Numbered from the stretch's first letter, positions 9,368 to 63,447 are shown. The stretch is 64,000 nucleotides of DNA from a virus (IMGVR_UViG_3300049460_000196:1-64000); one strand, 5' to 3'. A program made the numbers and translations. The notes: generated by a model from the sequence alone, not told the origin.

Positions 9368-10783
9368 TTAAGCTGCCAGCTTGTAGCGGTCAACCATCAC
9401 GGCTTCCAGCATCACGGACATTGGCGAGAAGTCCTTGGCACCCAGCACAGCTTTCAGGATGGCTGGCGAGAAACCAGATACCAGCGCAACGCCGCTGTCG
9501 TCATAGCGCGTTGGGGCGCTACCATGCGAGTTCAGGTTCCAGAACACGATGTTCGGTGCCTGGTAACCAGCTTCCGCGTACTTGGTGCGGATCATTTCCA
9601 TCGCTTGCACGGAACGGCCCTGGATGCAGTTGTTATCGAACTGCATATCCGACAGGATCAGGATGTTCTCTGGCATGTGCTCAGGTGCAACCTTCTGCGC
9701 CACCGCGATCTTCAGCACTTCCTCGAAAGCCGCCTGGATGTTGGTGTTGTACGCAACCTGCGAACCCATCTGATCCAGTTTCTGGAAGATGTCACCTTGC
9801 AGGTTGTACAGCTTAGGCACGTCAGTGAAGGTCATGAACGTGTCTTTGAACGCACCAGTGTTCTTTTCTGCCAGGTACAGACCCAGCGACATTGCCACAT
9901 TCATGCAGCTAACAGTACCGCTACCACCGGCAGGGCTACCCATCGAACCCGACACGTCAACCATCGGCAGGATAGACGCTTCACCGACGAAGTTTTCCAG
10001 GGCTTCCCACTGGGCAACCATCACCTTGCGAACGGCCTCGTCCATCGAACGACGTTCGTACGCCGTGAACGCACCTTTCAGCACATCGTATGGGTAAACG
10101 GCGCCGCTGTTGATCTTGGCTTCGCCAGTCGTCAGTGCTTCGGCGTACTTAGTGTAAGCGGCTTCAGCATTACGCTTGAACGCTTTCTTGTAGCGAGCAG
10201 CAGCCAGCGATGGCACGTGGCCGAAGTTGATGTTGTCCCAGTCTTTCGCGCACATCTGGGTTTCCACGACTTTCGTCAGGGTCACCAGAGTCTTGCGGTA
10301 GCGCTTAGGCGAGAAGCCCAGGTAGGCACGCAGCTCTTCAGCTACCTTGCCTTTACGTGGCATCCACTTTGCGCACAGGCCGTTACCAGCTTCCAGGCCA
10401 CCTTTGATCAGCTCAAAAGCGTGCTGGCGCAGGATTGGGTGCTTGACGGTCAGCAGGTCATCCCAACGACCGATTTCTGGGATCTTTTGCATGAGCTTCT
10501 GAGCCAGTGCGCTATCCTGGTTTTCCAGGTAACGCAGCACTTGCTTGAACAGCTCACGCTCGCCAGCACCACCGCGAACGTCACGCGCCCACTGCATGAT
10601 GCGCACAGCAACGTCGGCATCTTCCACGAAGGCCGATACAAACGCTGGGATCGGATCTTTACCGCGCATCGCGCCGATATGGAAGAACAGGTCAACACAC
10701 TTGTTCAGCGTGGACTTGTACGCCAGGGCGCCGTTGGTGGTGGTGGTTTCTTGCTCGTTGATTGCTTGTGCGAAAGTAGTCAT
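9368..10783 (-). CDS. TROVE/Ro60-related helical-repeat plus vWA protein (DUF2828-type)
   Basis: N-terminal TTNGA, RDVRGGAGER, GRWDDL, AKWMPR; vWA MIDAS DVSGSM, ILSDMQFD, VFWNL, SGFS. Confidence 0.88.
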   Translation of the reverse strand: MTTFAQAINEQETTTTNGALAYKSTLNKCVDLFFHIGAMRGKDPIPAFVSAFVEDADVAVRIMQWARDVRGGAGERELFKQVLRYLENQDSALAQKLMQKIPEIGRWDDLLTVKHPILRQHAFELIKGGLEAGNGLCAKWMPRKGKVAEELRAYLGFSPKRYRKTLVTLTKVVETQMCAKDWDNINFGHVPSLAAARYKKAFKRNAEAAYTKYAEALTTGEAKINSGAVYPYDVLKGAFTAYERRSMDEAVRKVMVAQWEALENFVGEASILPMVDVSGSMGSPAGGSGTVSCMNVAMSLGLYLAEKNTGAFKDTFMTFTDVPKLYNLQGDIFQKLDQMGSQVAYNTNIQAAFEEVLKIAVAQKVAPEHMPENILILSDMQFDNNCIQGRSVQAMEMIRTKYAEAGYQAPNIVFWNLNSHGSAPTRYDDSGVALVSGFSPAILKAVLGAKDFSPMSVMLEAVMVDRYKLAA

Positions 10784-10806: not shown

Positions 10807-10930
10807 AACTGGATCAGTTGTGCTGAATTATTTGGTAACGTTCAGTATCGTTAGGTCCCGGAGCCACTGGGAGGTTGTAAGTCCCAGTCCTCACGGTAGC
10901 GCGTGTTTTTGAATTGCTGTATCTGATCCA
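10807..10930 (-). ncRNA. ACAGCAA-module RNA in the leader of the TROVE/vWA gene (Y-RNA-like)
   Basis: TGGATCAG-A-TACAGCAA ... CTGATCCA-GTT terminal helix enclosing two hairpins; same architecture as the 39-40 kb elements. Confidence 0.7.
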
Positions 10931-18841: not shown

Positions 18842-18954
18842 TGGTCCGTCCAAAGGGATTCGAACCCCCATTGATCCGCTTACTCGACTACCGCTTAGAA
18901 GACGGTTGAGATACGGGCGGTTATACGTGCTCTATCCATCTGAGCTATGGACGG
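18842..18954 (-). tRNA. aberrant tRNA-Arg(UCU)-like RNA: D-armless core plus an extra upstream 5' half
   Basis: T-arm GGGGTTCGAATCCC, TGGACGG-A-CCA end, ACCGT-CTTCTAA-GCGGT arm; upstream CCGTCCA-TAGCTCAGATGGATAGAGCA. Confidence 0.7.
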
Positions 18955-36719: not shown

Positions 36720-37106
36720 TTATTTGGCGAGTTTCTCGAACTCCAGACGTGCGGCCACTTCGGCGTCGTGCAGGTTGGAGCGAGCTTGTTTGACCTGCAT
36801 GGACGCGCCAACGATGGCTTCCATCTGCGCCTGGGTGAGTATAACGAACGGCCAATTCTCCAGCGTATAATCGCCAGCCGCTGTCATTCGAGTTTTTGCA
36901 TGACCTTCGTCGTTGTGCATCAGAGCCGAATGAACTTCTTCGGCGTTTTTGCAAAAGCGAGGGTTGTAGTAATAGAACGACATACCAGCAGGGGCGGTGA
37001 TAGTGGTGGTGCCTTCACCGATTTCGTTGCTGGCTACAGTGAACTGATTATCTTGGAAAATTCGTTGCATGTTGATCTCCTTGTAATGAACATATGGTAC
37101 GTTCAT
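36720..37106 (-). CDS. hypothetical protein
   Basis: AAGGAG before MQRIF. Confidence 0.6.
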   Translation of the reverse strand: MNVPYVHYKEINMQRIFQDNQFTVASNEIGEGTTTITAPAGMSFYYYNPRFCKNAEEVHSALMHNDEGHAKTRMTAAGDYTLENWPFVILTQAQMEAIVGASMQVKQARSNLHDAEVAARLEFEKLAK

Positions 37107-37129
37107 TCGCCAAAGAGATCAAGGCAAAG

Positions 37130-37336
37130 TCATTGCGCCTTTACGTCTGTGGCGTCATGGATCGTCGTACTAAGGTCATGAATAGTAGAACAGTTACCAC
37201 ACTTGATAAAAACTGCTGGTTTGAATTCCACGACCTCGTCTGACACGTCATGGCCCTTCGGATCAATCTGGAAGGTGAATTGATTGTTGCAGCCACAGTT
37301 TCCACATATGACGTGTAGTCTAGCGTTAGCCATCAA
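37130..37336 (-). CDS. small Zn-ribbon protein
   Basis: CGNCGC ... CGNC. Confidence 0.65.
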   Translation of the reverse strand: MMANARLHVICGNCGCNNQFTFQIDPKGHDVSDEVVEFKPAVFIKCGNCSTIHDLSTTIHDATDVKAQ

Positions 37337-37781
37337 GTTCTACCATGGGAAAAGAAATGAAGCGACACATGATCGCTGGGCCAAATGCGAAACGACTGGA
37401 ACTAGTGACCACCGCTATCCGTTTGAATGGGGTCGCATTGGCAATCATCATCCCAAGCCGATTCGACAACCAAACAATGATATGATTGGTTTCCACACAA
37501 TCACGAACCGATACCAGCAATGTGTCCTGGCGTGTTTCTTGCGCATGTTCAATGATCAGATCAAACAAGGTATGGAATTCACTTGCCGTGTAATCGCAAT
37601 GCTGAGAAAAATCCAAGCGCACTGCATGATGTACTTTGTCAAGCAACAAATCCCATACCTGATTGGCTACCGTCATGCCATCGCATTGAATGATGGGATT
37701 GAACACGGGCACGTTGGTGCTCGCCACGGCCATGACAAGGTCGTCGATTGTGACTTGGAGTGTGGGATGCCGGATCATCAC
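37326..37781 (-). CDS. hypothetical protein
   Basis: coupled ORF. Confidence 0.55.
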   Translation of the reverse strand: MMIRHPTLQVTIDDLVMAVASTNVPVFNPIIQCDGMTVANQVWDLLLDKVHHAVRLDFSQHCDYTASEFHTLFDLIIEHAQETRQDTLLVSVRDCVETNHIIVWLSNRLGMMIANATPFKRIAVVTSSSRFAFGPAIMCRFISFPMVELDG

Positions 37782-38314
37782 AGATTCATGTGGATCATAC
37801 GGTTGGTCAGCGGGGTTGGCACGCCATCGAAGACGATTTTGTGTTTGGAGATGAACACGAAACTGCCGCCATTTTGCACAATGCGCATCAGGCTAGGCCA
37901 CATCGCATAGTTGACTTTGAACGTCGCATCGTGGATGTCGAGGATCAACGTGTGCTCTGGTTGCATGATGGTCACGACTTCATCCAGCTCGTGCAGGAAC
38001 TCGTCATCCGTTTGGAAGCAGTTCAGGACTGGGTTGGCACGACCCAGTATTTCGCGAGTGAACCAAAGGGCGCCGCAGCCAGGTTTGGTCTGAATGGCCA
38101 CGCCGATGAACTGATTGGGCGACATTTGTTTGAACGCCTGCTCCAGGGTTGTGCGAATTTCCGAGCCCTTGTTCATGTTATCGATATTCTCACGGAAGCG
38201 AGTATTGCGGATGCCATACTGTTGGGAGGGATTCACGTCAAACTCCTGAATTTGTAATACCACAATATTACAAGCAAGTGAACGAAAAATCAACAAGAAG
38301 GTGGCCTGAGCCAC
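37778..38314 (-). CDS. hypothetical protein
   Basis: ORF; start uncertain. Confidence 0.55.
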   Translation of the reverse strand: MAQATFLLIFRSLACNIVVLQIQEFDVNPSQQYGIRNTRFRENIDNMNKGSEIRTTLEQAFKQMSPNQFIGVAIQTKPGCGALWFTREILGRANPVLNCFQTDDEFLHELDEVVTIMQPEHTLILDIHDATFKVNYAMWPSLMRIVQNGGSFVFISKHKIVFDGVPTPLTNRMIHMNL

Positions 38315-38321
38315 CTTTTTA

Positions 38322-38741
38322 CTACAGACGGAAGATTTCGTTCAACCAGTCACGTGCTTCCGTGGACTCGTTGATCTTGTATGGGCCATGGATACGAGCG
38401 AAGCAGCCACGGCTATCAACTTTTTTCTGCATGTTGTCCTTGACCCAGTTAACATAGATGCGGTAAAGGTCTTCATCCAGGGCAGTGACGATGCCGATGG
38501 CCATAATGACCACTTTGTCAGAGCCCATGCCGTTCATGCGTTTGATGGCAATGCGGTCGCCTACTTGGATCTTGCTGTAACGATCGATTGATTTTTCATC
38601 CAAGGCACCTTTGATGCCGGGGCGGGATGGTTTGAGGCGGTCATCCATTTCCCAGTAACCACGAGAAATGAACTTTTCGGAGAGATCGAGATTTTGGTCG
38701 TCATTGGAAGACGCACCGACTACGAAGTATTGACGGGCCAT
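38322..38741 (-). CDS. stand-alone PUA/EVE-like domain resembling the N-terminus of McrB-type proteins
   Basis: YFVVGA..F...GYW, IQVGDRIAIK, IMAIGIV, VNW; own promoter and terminator. Confidence 0.5.
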   Translation of the reverse strand: MARQYFVVGASSNDDQNLDLSEKFISRGYWEMDDRLKPSRPGIKGALDEKSIDRYSKIQVGDRIAIKRMNGMGSDKVVIMAIGIVTALDEDLYRIYVNWVKDNMQKKVDSRGCFARIHGPYKINESTEARDWLNEIFRL

Positions 38742-38816
38742 AGATGATCCTTTGTGTTACGTTGTGGTAAAAAGCGACCTAACGGTTCGCGACACAATTA
38801 TAACACAAAAGATCTT

Positions 38817-39374
38817 TTATGCTTCGCTCAAATACTTGTATGGGACACAGTCAACCAACCACACGCCGTTAGTTGACAAGTAGAAGGTGTGGCCATTTTC
38901 GACCATGCGATGAGCATCGACCTTATACATGAACAGTTCACCATGCCGTGTGCCGACATTGCTGGCAGTTTCCTGATTGGAACTGAGATGCACATAGTGG
39001 CGAGTTTTTGGAATCAAACCCATCTTGTTGATTTCAGATACGAACTTGGTTGCGGTGCCATGATACAGCGTATCTGGAGGTTCCGCGACATCGAACGTGA
39101 GGTCAACTTGTGGTGTTGAGTGGCCTTGATTGCAGCGAATTTGCAGTGTGTGTTGTTCACCGCGCATCGAGTAACGAGTCTTGGTGTCGCTGGCCACAAT
39201 TTGCAGCAGCTCTTCCATGGTAAGCGGGTGTTTATCCGCTGCCATCTTCGACAGCAGGGTATCAACATAGACCCAGCCCTGGATGTCCAGGATAATGTTG
39301 AGTTTTTCAGGAAAATGACGCAGGACGCCACTCATGTACACACTGAATTTTTCTAGTTCTTTTTGACTACGCAT
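38817..39374 (-). CDS. kptA: RNA 2'-phosphotransferase (Tpt1/KptA)
   Basis: S..MS.VLRH.P, D.QGW, D.K.RY, IRCNQGHS, LYHGT, R.YVHLS, RHG, NGVWL. Confidence 0.96.
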   Translation of the reverse strand: MRSQKELEKFSVYMSGVLRHFPEKLNIILDIQGWVYVDTLLSKMAADKHPLTMEELLQIVASDTKTRYSMRGEQHTLQIRCNQGHSTPQVDLTFDVAEPPDTLYHGTATKFVSEINKMGLIPKTRHYVHLSSNQETASNVGTRHGELFMYKVDAHRMVENGHTFYLSTNGVWLVDCVPYKYLSEA

Positions 39375-39387
39375 GATATTTCCATTT

Positions 39388-39489
39388 AACAGAATCGTTG
39401 CCCACTAACCATTGGAGCAGTCAGAGCCGGCTTTCACCAAGCCCCGACAGGAGTCGAACCTGCGATATTTTATTTGCTGTAACGATTCT
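39388..39489 (-). ncRNA. circularly permuted tRNA-like RNA 1 with ACAGCAA module
   Basis: AGAATCGT-TACAGCAA..T-arm GCAGG-TTCGACT-CCTGT, loop-closed acceptor stem, D-like GCTCCAATGGTTAGTGG..ACGATTCT-GTT. Confidence 0.8.
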
Positions 39490-39495
39490 ATGAAT

Positions 39496-39623
39496 AACAG
39501 GATGGTGGTTTTTGCTGCTCTTACGAGCGATGCTGTCCTAACTTAGACTACAGCCCACAGGCCGACGGGATTCGATACCCGCACACACACCTTGAAATAG
39601 CGGTAAATTGCTGTGACCATCCT
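39496..39623 (-). ncRNA. circularly permuted tRNA-like RNA 2 (Glu-like) with ACAGCAA module
   Basis: AGGATGGT-CACAGCAA..ATTTCAA-GGTGT, T-arm GCGGG-TATCGAAT-CCCGT, CGGCC..GGCTG, D-arm GTCT-AAGTTA-GGAC, GCATC..ACCATCCT-GTT. Confidence 0.8.
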
Positions 39624-39673
39624 ACAAACTTTAGACCACATGGTAGCACGTTTTTGCCACCATGCAACCTTTA

Positions 39674-39994
39674 TTACTTCCAGATGTTAACCGTGATTTC
39701 AACTACTGGATCCGTACAGTCACGATATGGCTTCAAGGGCAAATACCAGTCCTCGCAGTCGCCAAAGCTATATTTGCTCGACGTCCGCTGCACGAGTTTA
39801 TCCTCAAGCGCGTCTTTGACCAGATGATCGATGTAGCCATATTCTGATCCATAGGCATCTTCGAATTTCTCTATTCGGCGAGTGCTTACTTCTTGCACAT
39901 GACGACTATACTCTTCTTCGATGCCAGTTTCGTAATCGGTCAGGTATGTTACCTCAGTGAAACGCAGTATTTTGTGAACCATGTTATCAAGCAA
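39674..39994 (-). CDS. hypothetical protein
   Basis: ORF. Confidence 0.55.
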   Translation of the reverse strand: MLDNMVHKILRFTEVTYLTDYETGIEEEYSRHVQEVSTRRIEKFEDAYGSEYGYIDHLVKDALEDKLVQRTSSKYSFGDCEDWYLPLKPYRDCTDPVVEITVNIWK

Positions 39995-40181
39995 TGCTGA
40001 GCAATACCCTGGTTACCGATTGTGCGATTTCGGCAGTGCTCATGCCAACAGTGGTGACGTTTTGTTCGCCAGCATGGGCCAGATGATAGACCGAACGATA
40101 GATCAGGTCACGTTCATCTTCCGTTTTAGCAGCGGACAGGGCGGAGCGGTATTCGTGGATTTGTTTGGCCGAGATAGTCAT
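39987..40181 (-). CDS. hypothetical protein
   Basis: AAGGA RBS. Confidence 0.55.
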   Translation of the reverse strand: MTISAKQIHEYRSALSAAKTEDERDLIYRSVYHLAHAGEQNVTTVGMSTAEIAQSVTRVLLSIA

Positions 40182-40206
40182 GTTGTTCCTTGTTGTTTTT
40201 ATTCAT

Positions 40207-40233
40207 GAAAAGGGCCCACCGAAGTGAGCCCTT
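40207..40233 (-). terminator. terminator after the permuted-RNA pair
   Basis: AAGGGCTCAC-TTCG-GTGGGCCCTTTT. Confidence 0.75.
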
Positions 40234-40375
40234 GCGGGTTGTTTTGCCTTTAGGCCAGTGCATTAGACCACTCTGCCATCCTTGGGACGAAGCCTGAGGA
40301 GTGGGATTCGAACCCACGAAGTAAGCCTTGGCGAGGCTCCTTGCCGGCTTGTGTATTGTTTGCTGTACACAACCC
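40234..40375 (-). ncRNA. circularly permuted tRNA-like RNA 3 (Ser-like) with ACAGCAA module
   Basis: GGGTTGTG-TACAGCAA..AA-GCCGG, long variable arm, GTGGG-TTCGAAT-CCCAC, closed acceptor, TGGCAGAGTGGTCTAATGCA, CTGGC-CT..ACAACCC. Confidence 0.85.
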
Positions 40376-40381
40376 AAAATT

Positions 40382-40529
40382 AACAGGATCGCGATGGATT
40401 GAACCATCTTTTAGTCGGGCGCGTCTACCGGTTTCGCCACAGACGAAAGATTTCGCTTTCGCCCGGGAGGGCTCGAACCTCCATGCCTTGCGGCACCTGA
40501 TTTCCGTTTAGTGTTGCTGCATCGATCCT
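40382..40529 (-). ncRNA. circularly permuted tRNA-like RNA 4 (Leu-like) with GCAGCAA module
   Basis: AGGATCGA-TGCAGCAA..AA-TCAGG, TGCC-GCAA-GGCA arm, GGAGG-TTCGAGC-CCTCC, closed acceptor, TGGCGAAACCGGTAGACGCG, CCCGA-CT..CGATCCT-GTT. Confidence 0.85.
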
Positions 40530-40549
40530 AAAACTTGTTACTTGTCTGT

Positions 40550-40578
40550 ATTAGAACACGGCGTTTCTGGAGTGTCAA
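40550..40578 (-). promoter_or_regulatory. sigma70 promoter for permuted RNAs 4 and 3
   Basis: TTGACA-17 bp-TCTAAT about 20 nt upstream of RNA 4. Confidence 0.65.
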
Positions 40579-40752
40579 CCTGTGCGACAACTGGTTTTTC
40601 ATCTTTGTTATCATCTTTCTTACCAAAGATAGCATCCCAACCAGTACGATACTTGTCGCTTGATGGTTTCGTCACCAGTGCTTCGCCAGTCACATCATTA
40701 TAGTGCATGTCAGTTCCTTAAAACCCATATGATACATGACGATCTCGTGTCG

Positions 40753-41286
40753 TCAATATGTATCAAATACCAGATGTATTCGTGTTTGATCACTGGCATT
40801 TACTGCGGTGTGCATTTCATTTGTCTTAAAACGATACAAACGCCCCACCGTTACCATACGTTCAATCTTATCGGCATTTACGAAAAAGCATCTGGGATTA
40901 GTATCGATGGGAATATGATACCGGAACTCTTCAACATCACGATGCAATGTATAGCAAGTCTTTGGTTGCAAATACATGAAGCGAATACGCCCAATATTCA
41001 CATTGTCAATTACCGCTTGTGCTTTCACGGCATCAATCACAGTTTCCATATAGGTGCCATGGAAGTGTTGATTCAATATCGCGAAGTCATGTGTGAACCG
41101 ATCAAAGACATTCAAGTCGTAGTTAAACAGCGGGCCTACACTTGAGAACCATCCTGAATCAGTTTGGGAATGTGTTACTGATAATTGCTGCCAGGTTTGG
41201 AATTCTGGCAGCAATGTAATATCTGGAATCGTACTTTTGATTCGTTGAGCAGCAAAAGTATTGGGGGTGGCGGTGATTGATTTCAT
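40753..41286 (-). CDS. aspartyl/asparaginyl beta-hydroxylase-like 2OG-Fe(II) oxygenase
   Basis: GRIRFM.L.P...YTLHRD, RYHIPI.TN, HTAVN.S...RIHLV. Confidence 0.85.
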   Translation of the reverse strand: MKSITATPNTFAAQRIKSTIPDITLLPEFQTWQQLSVTHSQTDSGWFSSVGPLFNYDLNVFDRFTHDFAILNQHFHGTYMETVIDAVKAQAVIDNVNIGRIRFMYLQPKTCYTLHRDVEEFRYHIPIDTNPRCFFVNADKIERMVTVGRLYRFKTNEMHTAVNASDQTRIHLVFDTY

Positions 41287-41307
41287 ACGGGTATTTACCC
41301 GCTGGTA

Positions 41308-41565
41308 CTATTGCATTACCAGAACCTCGAAACCCAACTGCATCTTGTTCAACTCTGCAATCACATACGTGACGTAATCGAAATTTGGAACATTACGCAT
41401 TTGCGCCACCCGGGCGGCATCATCTGCGAATTTTACCAAACTATTGGCATCGCCGTCACTTACCTCATCAGGTATAGCCACCAAGACAAATTGTGGCGCA
41501 CGGCCCACCATTATGATACGCCGTACTGGCGTAATAGTGGCTTGGGGAATGTCTTTCAATTTCAT
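41308..41565 (-). CDS. hypothetical protein
   Basis: ORF. Confidence 0.55.
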   Translation of the reverse strand: MKLKDIPQATITPVRRIIMVGRAPQFVLVAIPDEVSDGDANSLVKFADDAARVAQMRNVPNFDYVTYVIAELNKMQLGFEVLVMQ

Positions 41566-41618
41566 TTTATCTTTCCGGCATTCAGGAAATCACATATTAC
41601 ATGGCACCAACCCAAAAA

Positions 41619-42224
41619 TCAAGTCTTAAATGAAAGATCATGTTCGACCTGTCTTGTCGCCCAAGCTCGTTCACTGCAATGAAAGCATTGACCACATGCT
41701 GGAATTGAGTCATGTTTCGGGCACGACCGAGTCAATTCCAATAATTCAGATAAGCCCAATGTCTCGTACAGGTAAATGGTTGCACGCTTATCGAAGGTAA
41801 CAAATGGAGTGGCATAACCACGATACTTATTATCCATCGCAGTTAAGGGACGAGATGGAGCTGGCCCCGTGTAATCCCAGTCAAACGGATTCTGGGTTAC
41901 ACCTGTGTACAGCCAATCCATAGTTTCCATCGTTTGATAGATGTCACGACGCAGCTTATTGTCGATCAACACGAACTCATGTTCACGAGACTTCAACTCT
42001 ACGTTGAATTGATTTTCTAACCAACCCAACGTATTGCTGATACTTGCATTCTTGAGACCATTACGGAAAACTGTATAGATCTTATCAGGCACCAACCCAT
42101 TTGCCAACAGTAGATACATGAGGATCACACTGTCAGCGCCACCGGAATACGAAATACCCGTTTGTCCTTCATGGATGGGTATTATCACATTCCGGTATGG
42201 AGTTGGATAAATGACTTCGCGCAT
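41619..42224 (-). CDS. QueC-like PP-loop ATPase
   Basis: SYSGGADS, PF...DK, TRSC, CGQCFHCSER. Confidence 0.8.
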   Translation of the reverse strand: MREVIYPTPYRNVIIPIHEGQTGISYSGGADSVILMYLLLANGLVPDKIYTVFRNGLKNASISNTLGWLENQFNVELKSREHEFVLIDNKLRRDIYQTMETMDWLYTGVTQNPFDWDYTGPAPSRPLTAMDNKYRGYATPFVTFDKRATIYLYETLGLSELLELTRSCPKHDSIPACGQCFHCSERAWATRQVEHDLSFKT

Positions 42225-46387: not shown

Positions 46388-47575
46388 GTACCACTGAGAT
46401 TACATGGTCCTCGTTGACGCTTCGAACATTATTAGCCAGGATTGCGTCCCAACCTTCTTTCGATATCCACTAGAGCCCCTTTCGGGTAATCTAGTACGCC
46501 AACATCATCGCCGTTTTAAGTCAGGCAGTAGACTTGACACAGGGTGCTATTCTACGACTTTCCATCCGTTGACATTCGACTGCCATTAGAGCTTGCGGGC
46601 CCTACGAACTTCTTTTCATAAACCAACTAGGCCTTGCGAGCTTCGCTGAACTTGATTAACTTTCGTCTCAAGTATTAGATGATTTTCACACCCTGCCGAG
46701 GTAGACTTTGCATTTTGTATAAGTAAACGGTTTGATCGTTCGCTCTTTCTCCAATGAAAGTGCCATTTCTGGCGTGCAACTCACTGCGACGTGCTACCTC
46801 AGCTGCTCCAAAGTCTTTTGGACTCCAGAATACAACACGCCACGTATCTTTCGCCTCGCGGGCTACCGGATCGTCTTTCTCGACTAATGTCCACACCCTT
46901 GCGGATAGTCCACCAACCGATAAAACTGCATCATACCTCTTGGGTGCGACCCCTCGAAACATAACACTACCTTTCCCCGTACAAGATGGCAAGTTGGATT
47001 TGTGATGAGACTCGGCTCCCGCCATGTTCTCCCTCAACTGATGTTCCCTAACGAGCAAGCCCGCTAGGCATCTAAGCCAAGGTTCTTTCCATCACTCTTG
47101 CGTCCCAATTATCTCCAGGATAACCTGAAGTGCTTCCTTTCGGAAGCCGGGTCGGCTTGCATAACAGAACCACTTGCATGGCGCGGCTGCGTGAGCTTGA
47201 CCGCTTTCCCCGGGTTGCCCCGGCTCTTCCTTCCAATATACGGCAAGCCGTATACCGTGGAGCTATGCCCCCAAAACTTGTTTTACTCATAAATTCTACA
47301 AATACCCATTAAAGGAACGGCTGATACTAATGGAGCGACCATTATAAGGTTGCGAACCTCGCAGTGAACAAGTCACCGGCATATCAACTATGCGTTAGTA
47401 TCGTCAGGCAGCCGCACTGGCTGTTACTCCCTATTGTCCACCCGCACACGGAACAATCAACTACCGCGGTCAGGTCGCGTGCCATCAGGCAGTAGGTAAT
47501 TGACGGCTAGGATTTACACCTAGTACGTTCCATTAATGAATACTCAGAAAACACATGAGTAAAACAAATTGCTTA
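46388..47575 (-). ncRNA. large structured ncRNA, GOLLD-like
   Basis: ~1.2 kb with no credible ORF, many GNRA-capped hairpins, long-range helices 47278-90/47556-68, 3' GTAATCTCAG, next to a tRNA, own promoter. Confidence 0.65.
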
Positions 47576-54476: not shown

Positions 54477-54539
54477 CTGCTACTCCGTGTTCGTTTATCT
54501 TGTTCCTATTATAGGCGTAGATGAACAAACAATCAAGTA

Positions 54540-54752
54540 TTAGTCACGTTTGTTTGCCAGTTCGTTCAACTGTTTGCTGAGGTCGGCGTCGGTTTCGGCG
54601 GTGATCACGCCCAGCTTAACCATGTTGTTCATGGTACCACGATACACTTCAAACTCGCGGTTATCGAACGACTCAACCATCACGTGCTCGCGACCAGTGT
54701 CGCTGTCGAAGGTGTCGTAGTTGTGTTTGATCTGCGCGTTGATGATATACAT
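54540..54752 (-). CDS. hypothetical protein
   Basis: AGGAG RBS and promoter. Confidence 0.6.
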   Translation of the reverse strand: MYIINAQIKHNYDTFDSDTGREHVMVESFDNREFEVYRGTMNNMVKLGVITAETDADLSKQLNELANKRD

Positions 54753-54817
54753 GGTCGCTCCTGCATTTGTGTAGAATCACATTATAGACGCAGATGAACA
54801 GAAAATCAAGTAATATT

Positions 54818-54901
54818 TGGTGGACCAGAGCGGAATTGAACCGCCACGACGTCGCGAACGTCTTTCCCAGTGCGGAGGACTTGTACTCACCTGAGTAGCC
54901 C
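54818..54901 (-). ncRNA. degenerate tRNA-like RNA
   Basis: GGCGG-TTCAATT-CCGCT, ACCA end, variable-arm hairpin; D and anticodon arms irregular. Confidence 0.5.
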
Positions 54902-54926
54902 AGCGAAGCACCAATACATGATGCTT

Positions 54927-55003
54927 TGGTGGACTATGGGGACTCGAACCCCCTCTCCCTGGCCCGTAATGATCAGCCTCGTGGGGCTTGTCCCACAATC
55001 TCC
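54927..55003 (-). ncRNA. degenerate tRNA-like RNA (UAC-like loop)
   Basis: GGGG-TTCGAGT-CCCC, TAGTCC-ACCA; non-standard D region. Confidence 0.5.
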
Positions 55004-55095
55004 GCCATTAGATGTAGCGGTGCTGAATCACGCTTCTGAAGCTACTCGCTTGAAGCCGATCATTACGAGCGACTGTTGCCAGTCACCCAGCTGGT

Positions 55096-62024: not shown

Positions 62025-62300
62025 TCATTTACTACATGTAATTGGCTGAACTGGATTGCCACGGAAACCTGGTTGATACACTTGCACCAAGGCCACGCCA
62101 CCAGCACCATTACTGGTATTCGACTTTTCCTGCGAAGCAACAGCAAACACGAAGCCACTCAAGCATACCGTGTTGACTGTTACCGTTGCATTGTTGTTAG
62201 TCTTAGTTGATACCGACTCTGGGCGAAACACAGGAGCAACGGCATCAGCCGCAAATGCGGTACTGGCGAGCAACAGGGTAGTGAGGATTACTTTTTTCAT
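62025..62300 (-). CDS. small secreted protein
   Basis: signal peptide MKKVILTTLLLASTAFA; two Cys; start trimmed. Confidence 0.7.
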   Translation of the reverse strand: MKKVILTTLLLASTAFAADAVAPVFRPESVSTKTNNNATVTVNTVCLSGFVFAVASQEKSNTSNGAGGVALVQVYQPGFRGNPVQPITCSK

Positions 62301-62413
62301 ATTTGATATTATTGGGGGCGGGTGGAGGACTCGAACCTCCGACAACGTCCTTACAAGGGAATTGAGGGTTATGCTGTGACTATCCTGATCAGGATCGTGC
62401 CTTTCGGCTTCTA

Positions 62414-63035
62414 CAGCTAAATAAGGTCGCGAGATTGCAGTCTCCACCTTTCTAACGCTTTCAAGGAGCATCAGCATGGATATTTATCCGCCAACTTTTC
62501 TTTATATAAAACAACACGCAATTACTGGCAAACTTTACTTTGGCAAAACCGCAAAGGACCCAGAAACTTATTTGGGATCAGGCACTTATTGGCGCAAGCA
62601 TATCAAAAAACATGGAACAGAACATGTCATTACTGTGTGGTATTGTTTGTTTTATGACACGACAACAATAAGTGAATTTGCATTATCATTTTCGGCAATG
62701 CACAACATTGTTGAATCTACAGATTGGGCAAATCTTAGGCCTGAAAATGGTCTAGATGGTAACCTTCCTGGAAATGTCCCGTGGAATGTCGGACTAGAAG
62801 CACACAATAAAGGCACAACCAGTCCAAACAAAGGGCGAACTTTGTCAGTTCGTTCTCAAGAACATAAAGACAAAATATCAGCAAGCTTAACTGGTAAAAC
62901 CAAGTCTAGTAAACCTCAACCCAATCGAAAAGCACGGGTACATGTAAAACACGACACCGTAATCTGCCCTCATTGCGGAAAAACTGGCGGAAGTAATATA
63001 ATGGGTAGGTGGCATTTTTCTAATTGTCCAGCTAA
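62414..63035 (+). mobile_element. endonuclease cassette with 7-bp direct repeat CAGCTAA
   Basis: CAGCTAA at 62414-62420 and 63029-63035 flanks the leader and most of the ORF. Confidence 0.7.
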
Positions 63036-63054
63036 GACGTGCTCTACCAACTGA
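62476..63054 (+). CDS. GIY-YIG-like (Seg-type) homing endonuclease with NUMOD3-like repeats and C-terminal Zn finger
   Basis: FLYIKQH..TGKLYFGKT..Y.GSG.YW, WAN; PWN.G, EHKDKISASLTGK, CPHCGK..RWH..NC. Confidence 0.82.
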   Translation: MDIYPPTFLYIKQHAITGKLYFGKTAKDPETYLGSGTYWRKHIKKHGTEHVITVWYCLFYDTTTISEFALSFSAMHNIVESTDWANLRPENGLDGNLPGNVPWNVGLEAHNKGTTSPNKGRTLSVRSQEHKDKISASLTGKTKSSKPQPNRKARVHVKHDTVICPHCGKTGGSNIMGRWHFSNCPAKTCSTN

Positions 63055-63075
63055 GCTAACCCGCCCAAAAACTGT

Positions 63076-63447
63076 TTAGCAGCCTGCCGCAGGGCCGCGA
63101 TGTGCCATGCCGTAGGCAATGTGATCGGAATTACTACCCGCCTCTGCAAGCATTTTGGCCATGCGAGCGCGAGTCATATCATCTTCGAGACGTTTAGCTT
63201 CAGCTTCAGTCTGGATGGCAAGTTGCAGGTGATTGCCGATGATGTTCAGCTTTTCTTGAGTAATGCCGGTCGGTTTACTGACTTCCAGATAACCACGGAG
63301 CCAGTAAACGAAATCGCGAGAATTCATTGGAGTTAATCCTTGTTGTTGTTCAATAGCTAGACGTCGAATCCCGTCTACCAGTGCCTGTAATAAGACTTGT
63401 TTGCTCATCATGTGGCAACTATACAACAACAAGGTGGTACCATGCAA
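63076..63447 (-). CDS. hypothetical protein (probable start MNSRDF)
   Basis: FVYWLRGYLE..I.NHLQL. Confidence 0.6.
   Translation of the reverse strand: MHGTTLLLYSCHMMSKQVLLQALVDGIRRLAIEQQQGLTPMNSRDFVYWLRGYLEVSKPTGITQEKLNIIGNHLQLAIQTEAEAKRLEDDMTRARMAKMLAEAGSNSDHIAYGMAHRGPAAGC

What the first reader, a model, noticed from the sequence alone, without database searches (positions are those of the whole stretch)
62313..63065. tRNA-Thr(UGU) carrying the same module in non-permuted form, like a small intron
Removing the endonuclease cassette gives ...GAGCA-CGTCT [TAGCTGTAGAA-GCC-GAAA-GGC-AC-GATCCT-GATC-AGGAT-AGT-CACAGCATAACCCTCAATTCC] CTTGTAA-GGACG... Here the two module strands are joined by a small loop and the tRNA has normal 5' and CCA ends, the topological inverse of the 39-40 kb RNAs. 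Precise excision of ~60 nt would restore a canonical Thr(UGU). The insert lacks a terminal G and is far too short for a group I intron, so it is either a new processed intron or a permanent anticodon-masking appendage.
Basis: partly seen in the sequence, partly recalled or inferred. Interest (0 to 1): 0.85.

Follow-up and report, generated by a model that had tools for sequence, protein, structure and literature searches.

The report
Handle-bearing tRNA mimic invaded by endonuclease
A threonine-tRNA-shaped phage gene carries a conserved "handle" arm in its anticodon stem, as do many unpublished phage tRNA look-alikes that travel with a Ro60-like protein, and here a selfish endonuclease gene has lodged inside that arm; it is probably not an intron.

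Summary
On the minus strand, 63065-63035 and 62357-62313 join into a clean tRNA-Thr(UGU) with CCA. The 677 nt between them hold an antisense GIY-YIG/NUMOD3 endonuclease gene and a roughly 60-nt closed copy of the phage's "handle" (AUCCU-loop-AGGAU, 4 nt, ACAGCA, A/C/U-rich linker).

The intron reading is not favoured. One pattern scan of viral contigs plus a covariance model found 25 distinct endonuclease-free tRNA-shaped genes with the same arm at the same place. That place is between nt 28 and 29 of the anticodon stem, not in the loop. The arm's 3' end supplies nt 29-31, and nt 27-28 covary with 42-43.

The same handle occurs on permuted tRNA bodies and on bare anticodon stem-loops. It also lies just upstream of a DUF2828 gene whose predicted fold matches Ro60. 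Relatives carry anticodons that do not fit their bodies. A complete 424-kb phage with such an RNA has no splicing endonuclease or KptA, and it has a normal tRNA for the same anticodon.

Best reading: a Y-RNA-like tRNA mimic with a permanent docking arm, later invaded by a homing endonuclease. This scan has noted the handle-tRNA class before in at least 8 other genomes. The endonuclease invasion is particular to this locus.

The parts
63038..63065 (-). tRNA-like 5' part, nt 1-28: acceptor 5' strand, D arm, A26, and C27-G28, which pair with 42-43
   Evidence: ARAGORN on the joined halves. Covariation of the distal pairs 27-28/42-43 in 25 relatives.
63029..63037 (-). TC plus copy 1 of the 7-nt direct repeat TTAGCTG.
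   Evidence: Read directly from the sequence. Absent from the nearest endonuclease-free relative L045.
62476..63054 (+). Homing-endonuclease-like ORF (192 aa, GIY-YIG-like N-terminus, NUMOD3, zinc-finger-like C-terminus), antisense to the RNA gene. Its last 17 nt and stop codon lie in the tRNA D arm.
   Evidence: PHROG 655 and 314 'homing endonuclease' at E 3e-8; Pfam NUMOD3 and GIY-YIG weak, below cut-off. Free-standing relatives at up to 43% identity in viral contigs, none in a tRNA context.
62414..62475 (+). Upstream region of the endonuclease gene (AAGGAG ribosome-binding site before the ATG), ending in copy 2 of the TTAGCTG repeat (62420-62414)
   Evidence: Read directly from the sequence.
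62396..62413 (-). 5' linker of the arm, with an accessory GCC-GAAA-GGC hairpin. Shared almost base for base with L045.
62378..62395 (-). Closed handle hairpin AUCCU-GAUC-AGGAU plus the AGUC spacer. AC (62398-62397) can pair with GU (62380-62379) across a G.A mismatch.
   Evidence: Pattern unique in the window, 0 of 100 shuffles. Aligned with high posterior to covariance model R1. The hairpin is conserved and partly covaries across the family.
62361..62377 (-). ACAGCA motif (62377-62372; here followed by U where relatives have A) and an A/C/U-rich linker ending in UCAAU
   Evidence: RCAGCAA is conserved in the relatives, including members found by the model and not by the pattern.
62346..62360 (-). 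Anticodon stem-loop: local UCC (nt 29-31), loop CUUGUAA (anticodon UGU), GGACG (nt 39-43)
62313..62345 (-). Variable loop, T arm, acceptor 3' strand, C73 and encoded CCA
9368..10783 (-). Gene for the presumed protein partner: DUF2828/DUF7788 protein with a predicted Ro60 (TROVE plus vWA) fold
   Evidence: Pfam PF11443 and PF25043. PHROG 850 'RNA-binding protein'. AlphaFold2 model with pLDDT 81.6; best PDB matches are phage phiLo Ro60 (E 4e-9, TM 0.60) and the Xenopus, human and Deinococcus Ro60 structures.
10810..10930 (-). Open-handle RNA directly upstream of the DUF2828 gene. The same layout occurs in four other phages.

Best explanation
The locus encodes a tRNA-shaped small RNA of a widespread phage family. 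In this family a conserved 'handle' is built into a tRNA between nt 28 and 29 of the anticodon stem. The handle is a hairpin AUCCU-GNNA-AGGAU, about 4 nt of spacer, single-stranded ACAGCAA, and a pyrimidine/A-rich linker whose end supplies nt 29-31.

The handle is most likely a permanent extra arm that docks the phage's Ro60-like DUF2828 protein. The RNA would then work like a Y RNA. One module holds the ring protein. The other module, an intact anticodon stem-loop on a tRNA body, engages some tRNA-binding factor as a tether or decoy.

The permuted 39-40 kb RNAs are the same fold written inside-out. In this phage a GIY-YIG-type homing endonuclease gene later inserted, antisense, into the variable 5' linker of the arm.

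Shown here: membership of the family, position of the arm, co-occurrence and adjacency with the Ro60-like gene, and the fold of that protein. Inferred: that the arm stays in the mature RNA, that it binds the protein, the tether or decoy role, and whether the invaded gene still yields a working RNA.
For: (1) A viral-contig scan gave 40 stretches. 20 of them are distinct normal-order tRNA-shaped genes with the closed handle. Model R1 raised this to 29 matches, 25 distinct, at E <= 1e-10, five of them not used in training.
(2) The same model's best hit in the window is 62431-62313 (43 bits, E 5e-9), with the arm and the 3' part aligned.
(3) L045, from a complete 424-kb phage, shares the arm almost base for base, has no endonuclease, and runs ...GAGC-G-CG directly into TAGAAGCC.
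(4) Pair counts: 96.7% of cells paired, covariation 0.75 against 0.20 in shuffles. The distal pairs 27-28/42-43 switch between UA, CG, UG and GC.
(5) The handle also sits on permuted tRNA bodies with a capped acceptor stem. It also sits on RNAs whose only cargo is an anticodon stem-loop. So the unit 'handle plus anticodon stem-loop' exists without any tRNA to splice.
(6) DUF2828 is present in 4 of 5 contigs holding closed handles (the fifth is 9% complete) and in 0 of 14 control genomes. A handle RNA lies just upstream of that gene in this phage and in G001-G004. In G002 the only handle RNA found by the pattern is a closed tRNA type.
(7) The DUF2828 model matches Ro60 structures over its full length.
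(8) Decoding looks unlikely in relatives. One scaffold with G3.U70/A73 carries five different anticodons. Ser and Leu anticodons sit on short-variable-arm bodies. Some loops have 8 nt or C33.
(9) Complete phage G001 has a normal class II tRNA-Ser(GCU) besides its handle RNA with a GCU loop, and has no EndA and no KptA.
Against: - No RNA-level data exist, so retention of the arm is inferred.
- Deleting the arm on paper gives an ARAGORN-valid tRNA in 25 of 25 relatives and here. An intron would predict the same.
- This 113-kb fragment (27% complete) has no other tRNA-Thr(UGU), and the loop CUUGUAA is fully canonical.
- The locus lies 52 kb from the DUF2828 gene.
- The motif reads ACAGCAU where relatives almost always have ACAGCAA, and a 615-nt insertion splits the gene. 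The copy may therefore be inactive.
- The family alignment was partly ascertained with a pattern that fixes ATCC, GGAT and ACAGCA, and it was fitted to the model structure.
Confidence: 0.6

Rival explanations
1. Processed intron. The arm, with or without the endonuclease cassette, is cut out by a protein-dependent or otherwise unknown pathway and the ends are ligated, giving a working tRNA-Thr(UGU). The same module would direct end-joining of the permuted RNAs.
For: - In-silico removal restores a canonical tRNA here and in 25 of 25 relatives.
- Normal 5' end and encoded CCA.
- No other Thr(UGU) gene in the 113-kb fragment.
- A KptA/Tpt1 gene (E 2e-42) lies next to permuted handle RNAs in this phage.
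- The closed and open forms are related as intron and permuted gene are in red-alga and archaeal tRNAs (own knowledge).
Against: - No EndA in this contig or in G001-G004. No KptA in G001-G004. No RtcB or Rnl2-type ligase in this fragment.
- The handle occurs on bare anticodon stem-loops and on tRNA bodies with tetraloop-capped acceptor stems, which could not mature into tRNAs.
- Anticodon and body do not match in relatives.
- G001 already has a canonical tRNA for the same anticodon.
- Invariant sequence motifs (AGGAU, ACAGCAA) and adjacency to a Ro60-like gene point to a protein-binding site.
Confidence: 0.12
2. Dead relic. The gene belonged to the handle-tRNA family but was inactivated when the endonuclease cassette split it. 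The halves merely have not decayed yet.
For: - A 615-nt antisense insertion separates nt 1-28 from the rest. It is the only interrupted member among about 29 seen.
- ACAGCAU deviates at a nearly invariant A.
- The 7-nt direct repeat suggests illegitimate integration and not clean homing.
Against: - Every stem of the tRNA, the handle hairpin and the anticodon loop are intact.
- The insertion lies in the one linker that varies in length in the family and already tolerates an extra hairpin in L045.
- A two-piece RNA held by the acceptor stem and the 27-28/42-43 pairs could still assemble.
Confidence: 0.2
3. Self-splicing group I (or group II) intron with an antisense endonuclease gene in a tRNA anticodon loop.
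For: - Bacterial and phage tRNA genes do carry group I introns with endonuclease genes (PMC3984707).
Against: - No Rfam intron hit at E up to 10.
- No G at the 3' end of the insert.
- Only about 115 nt of the insert lie outside the ORF.
- The endonuclease-free relatives' arms are 45-54 nt.
- The insertion is in the stem, not the loop.
Confidence: 0.02
4. The handle arrived as cargo of the endonuclease cassette, so one mobile element disrupted an ordinary tRNA-Thr.
For: The handle and the endonuclease gene are adjacent.
Against: 25 endonuclease-free relatives have the arm at the same tRNA position. Endonuclease relatives elsewhere are not next to handles or tRNAs.
Confidence: 0.03

Closest known systems
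YrlA-type Y RNAs with Ro60/Rsr in bacteria, mycobacteriophages and Thermus phage phiLo (PMC4201824; PMC12135203; Rfam RF02553)
   Same: - A small RNA with a tRNA-like module plus a protein-binding module, encoded next to a ring-shaped TROVE plus vWA protein.
- Several such RNAs per genome.
- M. smegmatis YrlA is even cut by RNase P and receives CCA (PMC4201824).
   Different: - The protein is DUF2828, with no sequence-level match to Ro60 in the PDB; only the fold matches.
- The handle is AGGAU/AUCCU plus ACAGCAA, not the GNCGAAN0-1G module.
- No RF02553 hit.
- Here the RNA has normal tRNA order, with the handle closed and set inside the anticodon stem.
- A complete anticodon stem-loop is displayed; YrlA lacks one.
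Permuted tRNA genes and BHB introns of Cyanidioschyzon and archaea (review PMC4090602; own knowledge)
   Same: The same module appears as an internal insert in a normal-order gene and as paired leader and trailer in a permuted gene. Insertions occur at non-canonical positions in the anticodon stem.
   Different: - No bulge-helix-bulge geometry.
- No splicing endonuclease gene.
- The permuted forms here have capped, sometimes shortened acceptor stems without a discriminator or CCA.
- The module carries invariant sequence motifs.
Group I introns with homing endonuclease genes in bacterial and phage tRNA genes (PMC3984707)
   Same: A tRNA gene interrupted near the anticodon by an element that carries an endonuclease gene.
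   Different: No ribozyme core, no terminal G, an antisense ORF, and insertion in the stem.
Free-standing GIY-YIG homing endonucleases of phage tRNA regions, such as T4 SegB (PMC2330249)
   Same: A GIY-YIG-type endonuclease gene within a phage tRNA gene cluster, likely spreading by cutting endonuclease-free alleles.
   Different: It sits inside an RNA gene, in a length-tolerant linker, and not between genes. It is flanked by a 7-nt direct repeat, and its stop codon is borrowed from the tRNA D arm.

Membership tests
Phage handle-tRNA family (hairpin plus ACAGCAA arm; uncatalogued) | Closed hairpin AUCCU-loop-AGGAU followed after about 4 nt by RCAGCAA | tested here: met
   62395-62372. Unique in the window, 0 of 100 shuffles. 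The seventh base is U instead of A.
Phage handle-tRNA family (hairpin plus ACAGCAA arm; uncatalogued) | Arm set between tRNA nt 28 and 29, with the linker's end supplying nt 29-31 and nt 27-28 pairing with 42-43 | tested here: met
   CG (63039-63038) plus UCC (62360-62358) pair with GGACG (62350-62346). The same composite is seen in L045, L040 and L039, and the distal pairs covary in A2.
Phage handle-tRNA family (hairpin plus ACAGCAA arm; uncatalogued) | Match to the family covariance model | tested here: inconclusive
   Top hit in the window, 43 bits, E 5e-9, with the arm and 3' part aligned. The true 5' part is displaced by the endonuclease gene, and plain tRNAs score 26-38 bits. Uninterrupted members score 54-126 bits.
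Phage handle-tRNA family (hairpin plus ACAGCAA arm; uncatalogued) | Genome encodes a DUF2828 (Ro60-fold) protein with a handle RNA next to it | tested here: met
   Gene at 9368-10783, handle RNA at 10930-10810. The same layout occurs in G001-G004.
YrlA / Y RNA (Rfam RF02553) | Match to the Rfam model | tested here: not met
   No hit at gathering threshold in the window, nor at E up to 10 in 62200-63200 and 37000-42000.
YrlA / Y RNA (Rfam RF02553) | GNCGAAN0-1G motif in the Ro-binding module (PMC4201824) | tested here: inconclusive
   Absent from the family's handle consensus. GCCGAAAG does occur in the accessory hairpin of this RNA and of L045 only, and may be chance.
YrlA / Y RNA (Rfam RF02553) | 5' and 3' ends paired to form the protein-binding stem, with the tRNA-like acceptor stem closed | tested here: not met
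   Here the ends are the tRNA's own and the handle is internal. The permuted RNAs at 39-40 kb do have that layout.
Group I intron | Conserved catalytic core (Rfam RF00028) | tested here: not met
   No match at E up to 10.
Group I intron | Guanosine as the last intron nucleotide | tested here: not met
   The insert ends in ...AAUUCC (or ...CAAU at the 28/29 boundary).
Archaeal/eukaryal protein-spliced tRNA intron | Splicing endonuclease (PF01974) available | tested here: not met
   0 matches in G000 and G001-G004. The controls ring in 4 archaea. Host genes were not testable.
Archaeal/eukaryal protein-spliced tRNA intron | Bulge-helix-bulge motif at the exon-intron junctions | not tested
   Not looked for. 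No BHB scan was run and the folds were not inspected for this motif.
Functional tRNA-Thr | Cloverleaf, canonical 7-nt loop with U33 and A37, CCA | tested here: met
   Only after deleting the insert on paper.
Functional tRNA-Thr | Mature RNA lacks the insert and is aminoacylated | not testable with these tools
   Needs RNA data. G2-C71 differs from the C2-G71 of this phage's two tRNA-Thr(GGU) genes shown.

The most novel reading that the evidence does not exclude
The handle is a phage-specific RNA processing module. A DUF2828-centred particle, together with RNA repair enzymes (KptA here, RtcB in G001, or host enzymes), would excise it from interrupted genes and join the ends of permuted ones. 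That would be protein-dependent tRNA splicing and un-permutation in a bacterial virus, and this locus would be a true intron-containing tRNA-Thr(UGU).
Probability: 0.1. Interest if true: 0.9.

Novelty: new variant of a known kind. Interest (0 to 1): 0.6.

Why it matters
Ro60-Y RNA particles are known from animals, bacteria and a few phages, and their tRNA-like modules remain functionally unexplained. This family appears far larger. More than 8000 DUF2828 proteins passed E 1e-10 in one search.

The family uses a different protein family and a different handle. It shows the cargo plainly: an anticodon stem-loop, alone or on a whole tRNA, in either gene order. That points to tRNA-directed host factors, such as anticodon nucleases, modification enzymes or synthetases, as the likely target. 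It also gives a simple set of RNAs for binding and pull-down tests.

This locus adds two things. First, a full tRNA with a canonical Thr(UGU) loop and CCA can carry the handle. Second, the arm's 5' linker tolerates, or at least received, a homing endonuclease gene. That makes the RNA gene a homing site and gives a natural test of which parts of the RNA are dispensable.

It also warns annotators. tRNA finders miss these genes, and in-silico 'splicing' would mislabel them as intron-containing tRNAs.

Tried and rejected
- Group I/II intron: rejected. No Rfam hit, no terminal G, and too little non-coding sequence.
It is absent in L045 and in all 25 relatives, so it was rejected as a family feature.
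- Handle as cargo of the endonuclease cassette: rejected. The endonuclease relatives L001-L006 are not in tRNA or handle contexts.
- Search for orthologous loci with or without the endonuclease:
  - Exact 5'-half and 3'-half patterns found nothing in viral contigs.
  - blastn against GenBank phages found only ordinary tRNA-Thr genes.
  - The neighbouring 153-aa protein has no viral-contig relatives.
  - The single metagenome scan returned only L045's own contig.
- Closed-handle pattern in 185,579 prokaryote genomes: 0 hits.
- Conserved pairing between the purine-rich 5' linker and the pyrimidine-rich 3' linker: RNAalifold found none.
- Terminator or promoter inside the cassette: nothing above shuffle expectation.
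- Sequence search of the DUF2828 protein against the PDB: no Ro60 hit. Only the fold search showed the relationship.

Full report
**What is there**

The window is part of a 113-kb viral record that CheckV rates 27% complete. It holds about 55 tRNA genes, a GOLLD RNA and a KptA gene.

On the minus strand, 63065-63035 and 62357-62313 join into a sequence that ARAGORN calls tRNA-Thr(tgt). It has all the usual tertiary-pair nucleotides, C73 and an encoded CCA. 49 of the 55 tRNAs in the contig also encode CCA.

The 677 nt in between contain a 192-aa ORF on the opposite strand (62476-63054). It matches PHROG homing-endonuclease families at E 3e-8. It matches Pfam NUMOD3 and GIY-YIG only weakly. Its last 17 nt and its stop codon lie in the tRNA D arm.

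This is the closed form of the handle that occurs about ten times in open form elsewhere in the contig, written WGGAT-N4-ACAGCAA ... N4-ATCCW-GTTAA. The closed pattern is unique in the window and absent from 100 shuffles.

**It is not a known intron**

No Rfam family matches 62200-63200 at E up to 10. The insert does not end in G. Only about 115 nt of it lie outside the ORF.

**Relatives change the picture**

I scanned viral contigs for closed handle, then ACAGCA, then 35-60 nt, then a T loop. This returned 40 stretches.
- 20 are distinct tRNA-shaped genes in normal order, with 7-bp acceptor stems and often CCA. Each carries the handle between the D arm and the anticodon stem-loop.
- A covariance model built from them (R1) found 29 matches, 25 distinct, at E <= 1e-10 in the fetched loci. 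Five were not used in training and three have variant handles.
- None of them contains an endonuclease gene.
- The model's best hit in the window is 62431-62313 (43 bits, E 5e-9), with the arm, anticodon stem-loop, T arm and acceptor 3' strand aligned. The true 5' part is 600 nt away, so that part of the alignment is meaningless. Ordinary tRNAs score 26-38 bits by skipping the arm.

The nearest relative is L045, in a complete 424,529-bp phage with terminal repeats. It shares the accessory hairpin, handle and linker almost base for base. It runs from ...GAGC-G-CG straight into TAGAAGCC.

**Where the arm sits**

In the family, the two nucleotides after position 26 pair with positions 42-43 and covary with them (UA, CG, UG, GC). 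The end of the arm's 3' linker, consensus ...UCAAUUCC, supplies positions 29-31, and sometimes 28-31.

Over the whole structure, 96.7% of cells are paired. The covariation score is 0.75, against 0.20 in shuffles and at most 0.18 in slid controls. The caveat is that alignment A2 was fitted to the model.

Here C27-G28 (63039-63038) plus UCC (62360-62358) pair perfectly with GGACG.

The endonuclease cassette is bracketed by a 7-nt direct repeat, TTAGCTG (63035-63029 and 62420-62414). It lies in the 5' linker of the arm. That linker varies in length across the family (9-18 nt).

However, none of the 25 relatives has a complement of 5 nt or more to ACAGCAA in that linker. The motif is conserved as sequence, not as a helix.

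**Permanent arm or intron?**

Deleting the arm on paper gives an ARAGORN-valid tRNA in 25 of 25 relatives. Several points favour a permanent arm.
- The same handle occurs on permuted tRNA bodies whose acceptor stem is capped by a tetraloop and lacks a discriminator and CCA. These include Thr(UGU)-type ones in ten viral contigs.
- It also occurs on minimal RNAs whose only cargo is an anticodon stem-loop, with loops such as CUUUUAA, CUUGUAA and CUGCUAA. The conserved unit is handle plus anticodon stem-loop.
- Relatives pair anticodons with unsuitable bodies. One scaffold with G3.U70 and A73 carries five different anticodons. Ser and Leu anticodons sit on short-variable-arm bodies. Some loops have 8 nt or C33.
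- L045, the closest relative of this 'tRNA-Thr', has a GCU loop on a Thr-like body. Its phage already has a normal 90-nt tRNA-Ser(GCU).
- That complete phage has no splicing endonuclease and no KptA, though it has RtcB far from the handle loci. G002-G004 have none of the three. This fragment has KptA but no EndA, RtcB or Rnl2-type ligase.

**The partner**

The protein at 9368-10783 is DUF2828 plus DUF7788 and PHROG 850 'RNA-binding protein'. It has no sequence-level match to Ro60 in the PDB.

An AlphaFold2 model from a 31-sequence alignment (pLDDT 81.6) matches Ro60 structures over its full length. Phage phiLo Ro60 comes first (E 4e-9, TM 0.60), followed by Xenopus, human and Deinococcus Ro60.

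DUF2828 is present in 4 of 5 contigs holding closed handles; the fifth is 9% complete. It is present in 0 of 14 control genomes.

In this phage and in G001-G004 a handle RNA lies just upstream of the gene. Handle copies are strand-specific and multi-copy. In G002 the only handle RNA found by the pattern is a closed, normal-order tRNA type.

This is the genomic signature of Ro60 with its Y RNAs, whose YrlA class also mimics tRNA. M. smegmatis YrlA is even opened by RNase P and receives CCA (PMC4201824). Phage phiLo Ro60 binds two Y-like RNAs encoded upstream of its gene (PMC12135203).

The handle differs from the YrlA module. There is no RF02553 hit, and the consensus has no GNCGAAN0-1G. The string GCCGAAAG does occur in the accessory hairpin of this RNA and of L045.

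**Mechanism proposed**

By analogy with Y RNAs, the hairpin and the single-stranded ACAGCAA would dock the Ro60-like ring. The exposed anticodon stem-loop, with or without the rest of the tRNA, would engage a tRNA-recognising factor, which the particle tethers, sequesters or senses. This is inferred, not shown.

Each phage carries a panel of different anticodon loops, often on one scaffold. That suits baits for anticodon-specific enzymes better than decoders.

The endonuclease is a secondary invader. It found a length-tolerant linker in a conserved RNA gene, much as homing endonuclease genes settle in intron loops. Whether the invaded gene still gives a working RNA, as one long transcript or as two pieces held by the acceptor stem, is unknown. 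The single deviation, ACAGCAU for ACAGCAA, may hint at relaxed constraint.

**Novelty and prior notes**

I found no paper describing the handle, DUF2828 as an RNA partner, or tRNAs with such an arm. A review of jumbo phages mentions only that some carry a ROT/TROVE protein with a tRNA-like partner (PMC7824862). The closed-handle pattern is absent from 185,579 prokaryote genomes.

After I had reached this reading, the scan's own notes showed that the same class, tRNA look-alikes with a Ro60-type handle at 28/29, had been reported by other agents in at least 8 other genomes. The open and permuted forms had been reported in this genome. Those notes agree with mine. I retested the parts I rely on.

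Particular to this locus are the endonuclease invasion, the fully canonical Thr(UGU) loop with CCA, and the accessory hairpin shared with L045.

**Limits**
- There are no RNA data.
- The family sample was ascertained with a pattern that fixes the core motifs.
- The base rate of DUF2828 among large phages was not measured.

Noticed in passing
window 18842-18954 (-): A 113-nt tRNA-like gene that ARAGORN misses (Rfam tRNA 37.8 bits; R1 28 bits). It has a normal acceptor stem, D arm, T arm and CCA. About 21 extra nt lie between the D arm and an ACCGU-CUUCUAA-GCGGU stem-loop (anticodon UCU), and the variable region is long. No handle motif.
   Followed up: partly
L023, L030, L044, L053, L054 (viral contigs): One closed-handle scaffold (GGGGCCU.../...GGGCUCC-A-CCA) has G3.U70 and A73, the alanine identity set also used by tmRNA. 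It carries five different anticodon loops (AUG, UGA, UGU, GUU, GAU) in different phages.
   Followed up: partly
window 62401-62408 (-) and L045: The accessory hairpin GCC-GAAA-GGC contains GCCGAAAG, which fits the GNCGAAN0-1G motif conserved in YrlA Y RNAs (PMC4201824). It is present in only these two family members and may be chance.
   Followed up: no
G000 100867-100802 and 66657-66597 (-); G001 181167, 181231, 207025 (+); L064, L071-L073: Minimal open-handle RNAs of about 60-70 nt whose only cargo is an anticodon stem-loop. CUUUUAA (Lys UUU type) is the commonest loop. Others are CUUGUAA, CUGCUAA, CUUUAAA and CUGAUAA.
   Followed up: partly
window 46391-46843 (-): GOLLD RNA (Rfam RF02032, 203 bits, E 7e-56) within the tRNA-rich region.
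   Followed up: no
window 38817-39374 (-): KptA/Tpt1 RNA 2'-phosphotransferase (PF01885, E 2e-42) directly downstream of two permuted handle RNAs. No KptA was found in G001-G004, so the link is not general.
   Followed up: partly
L018:2280-2401 (-) and G001:53129: A closed-handle tRNA-like RNA with a UUA loop, which would read the UAA stop codon. Separately, a conventional CUA-anticodon (amber-reading) tRNA in the 424-kb phage.
   Followed up: no
window 54538-55017 (-): ARAGORN calls a permuted tmRNA with tag ASLKCIVVP. Rfam gave no tmRNA hit at gathering threshold, so the call is doubtful.
   Followed up: no
open handle RNAs in the window and in L064-L073: Open handles are typically preceded by (A)GUUU(A/U) right after the CCA of the upstream tRNA, and are followed by GUU(A/U)(A/U). 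The closed loops are mostly GNNA (for example GUUA before AGGAU). The open ends therefore look like a closed loop cut open.
   Followed up: no
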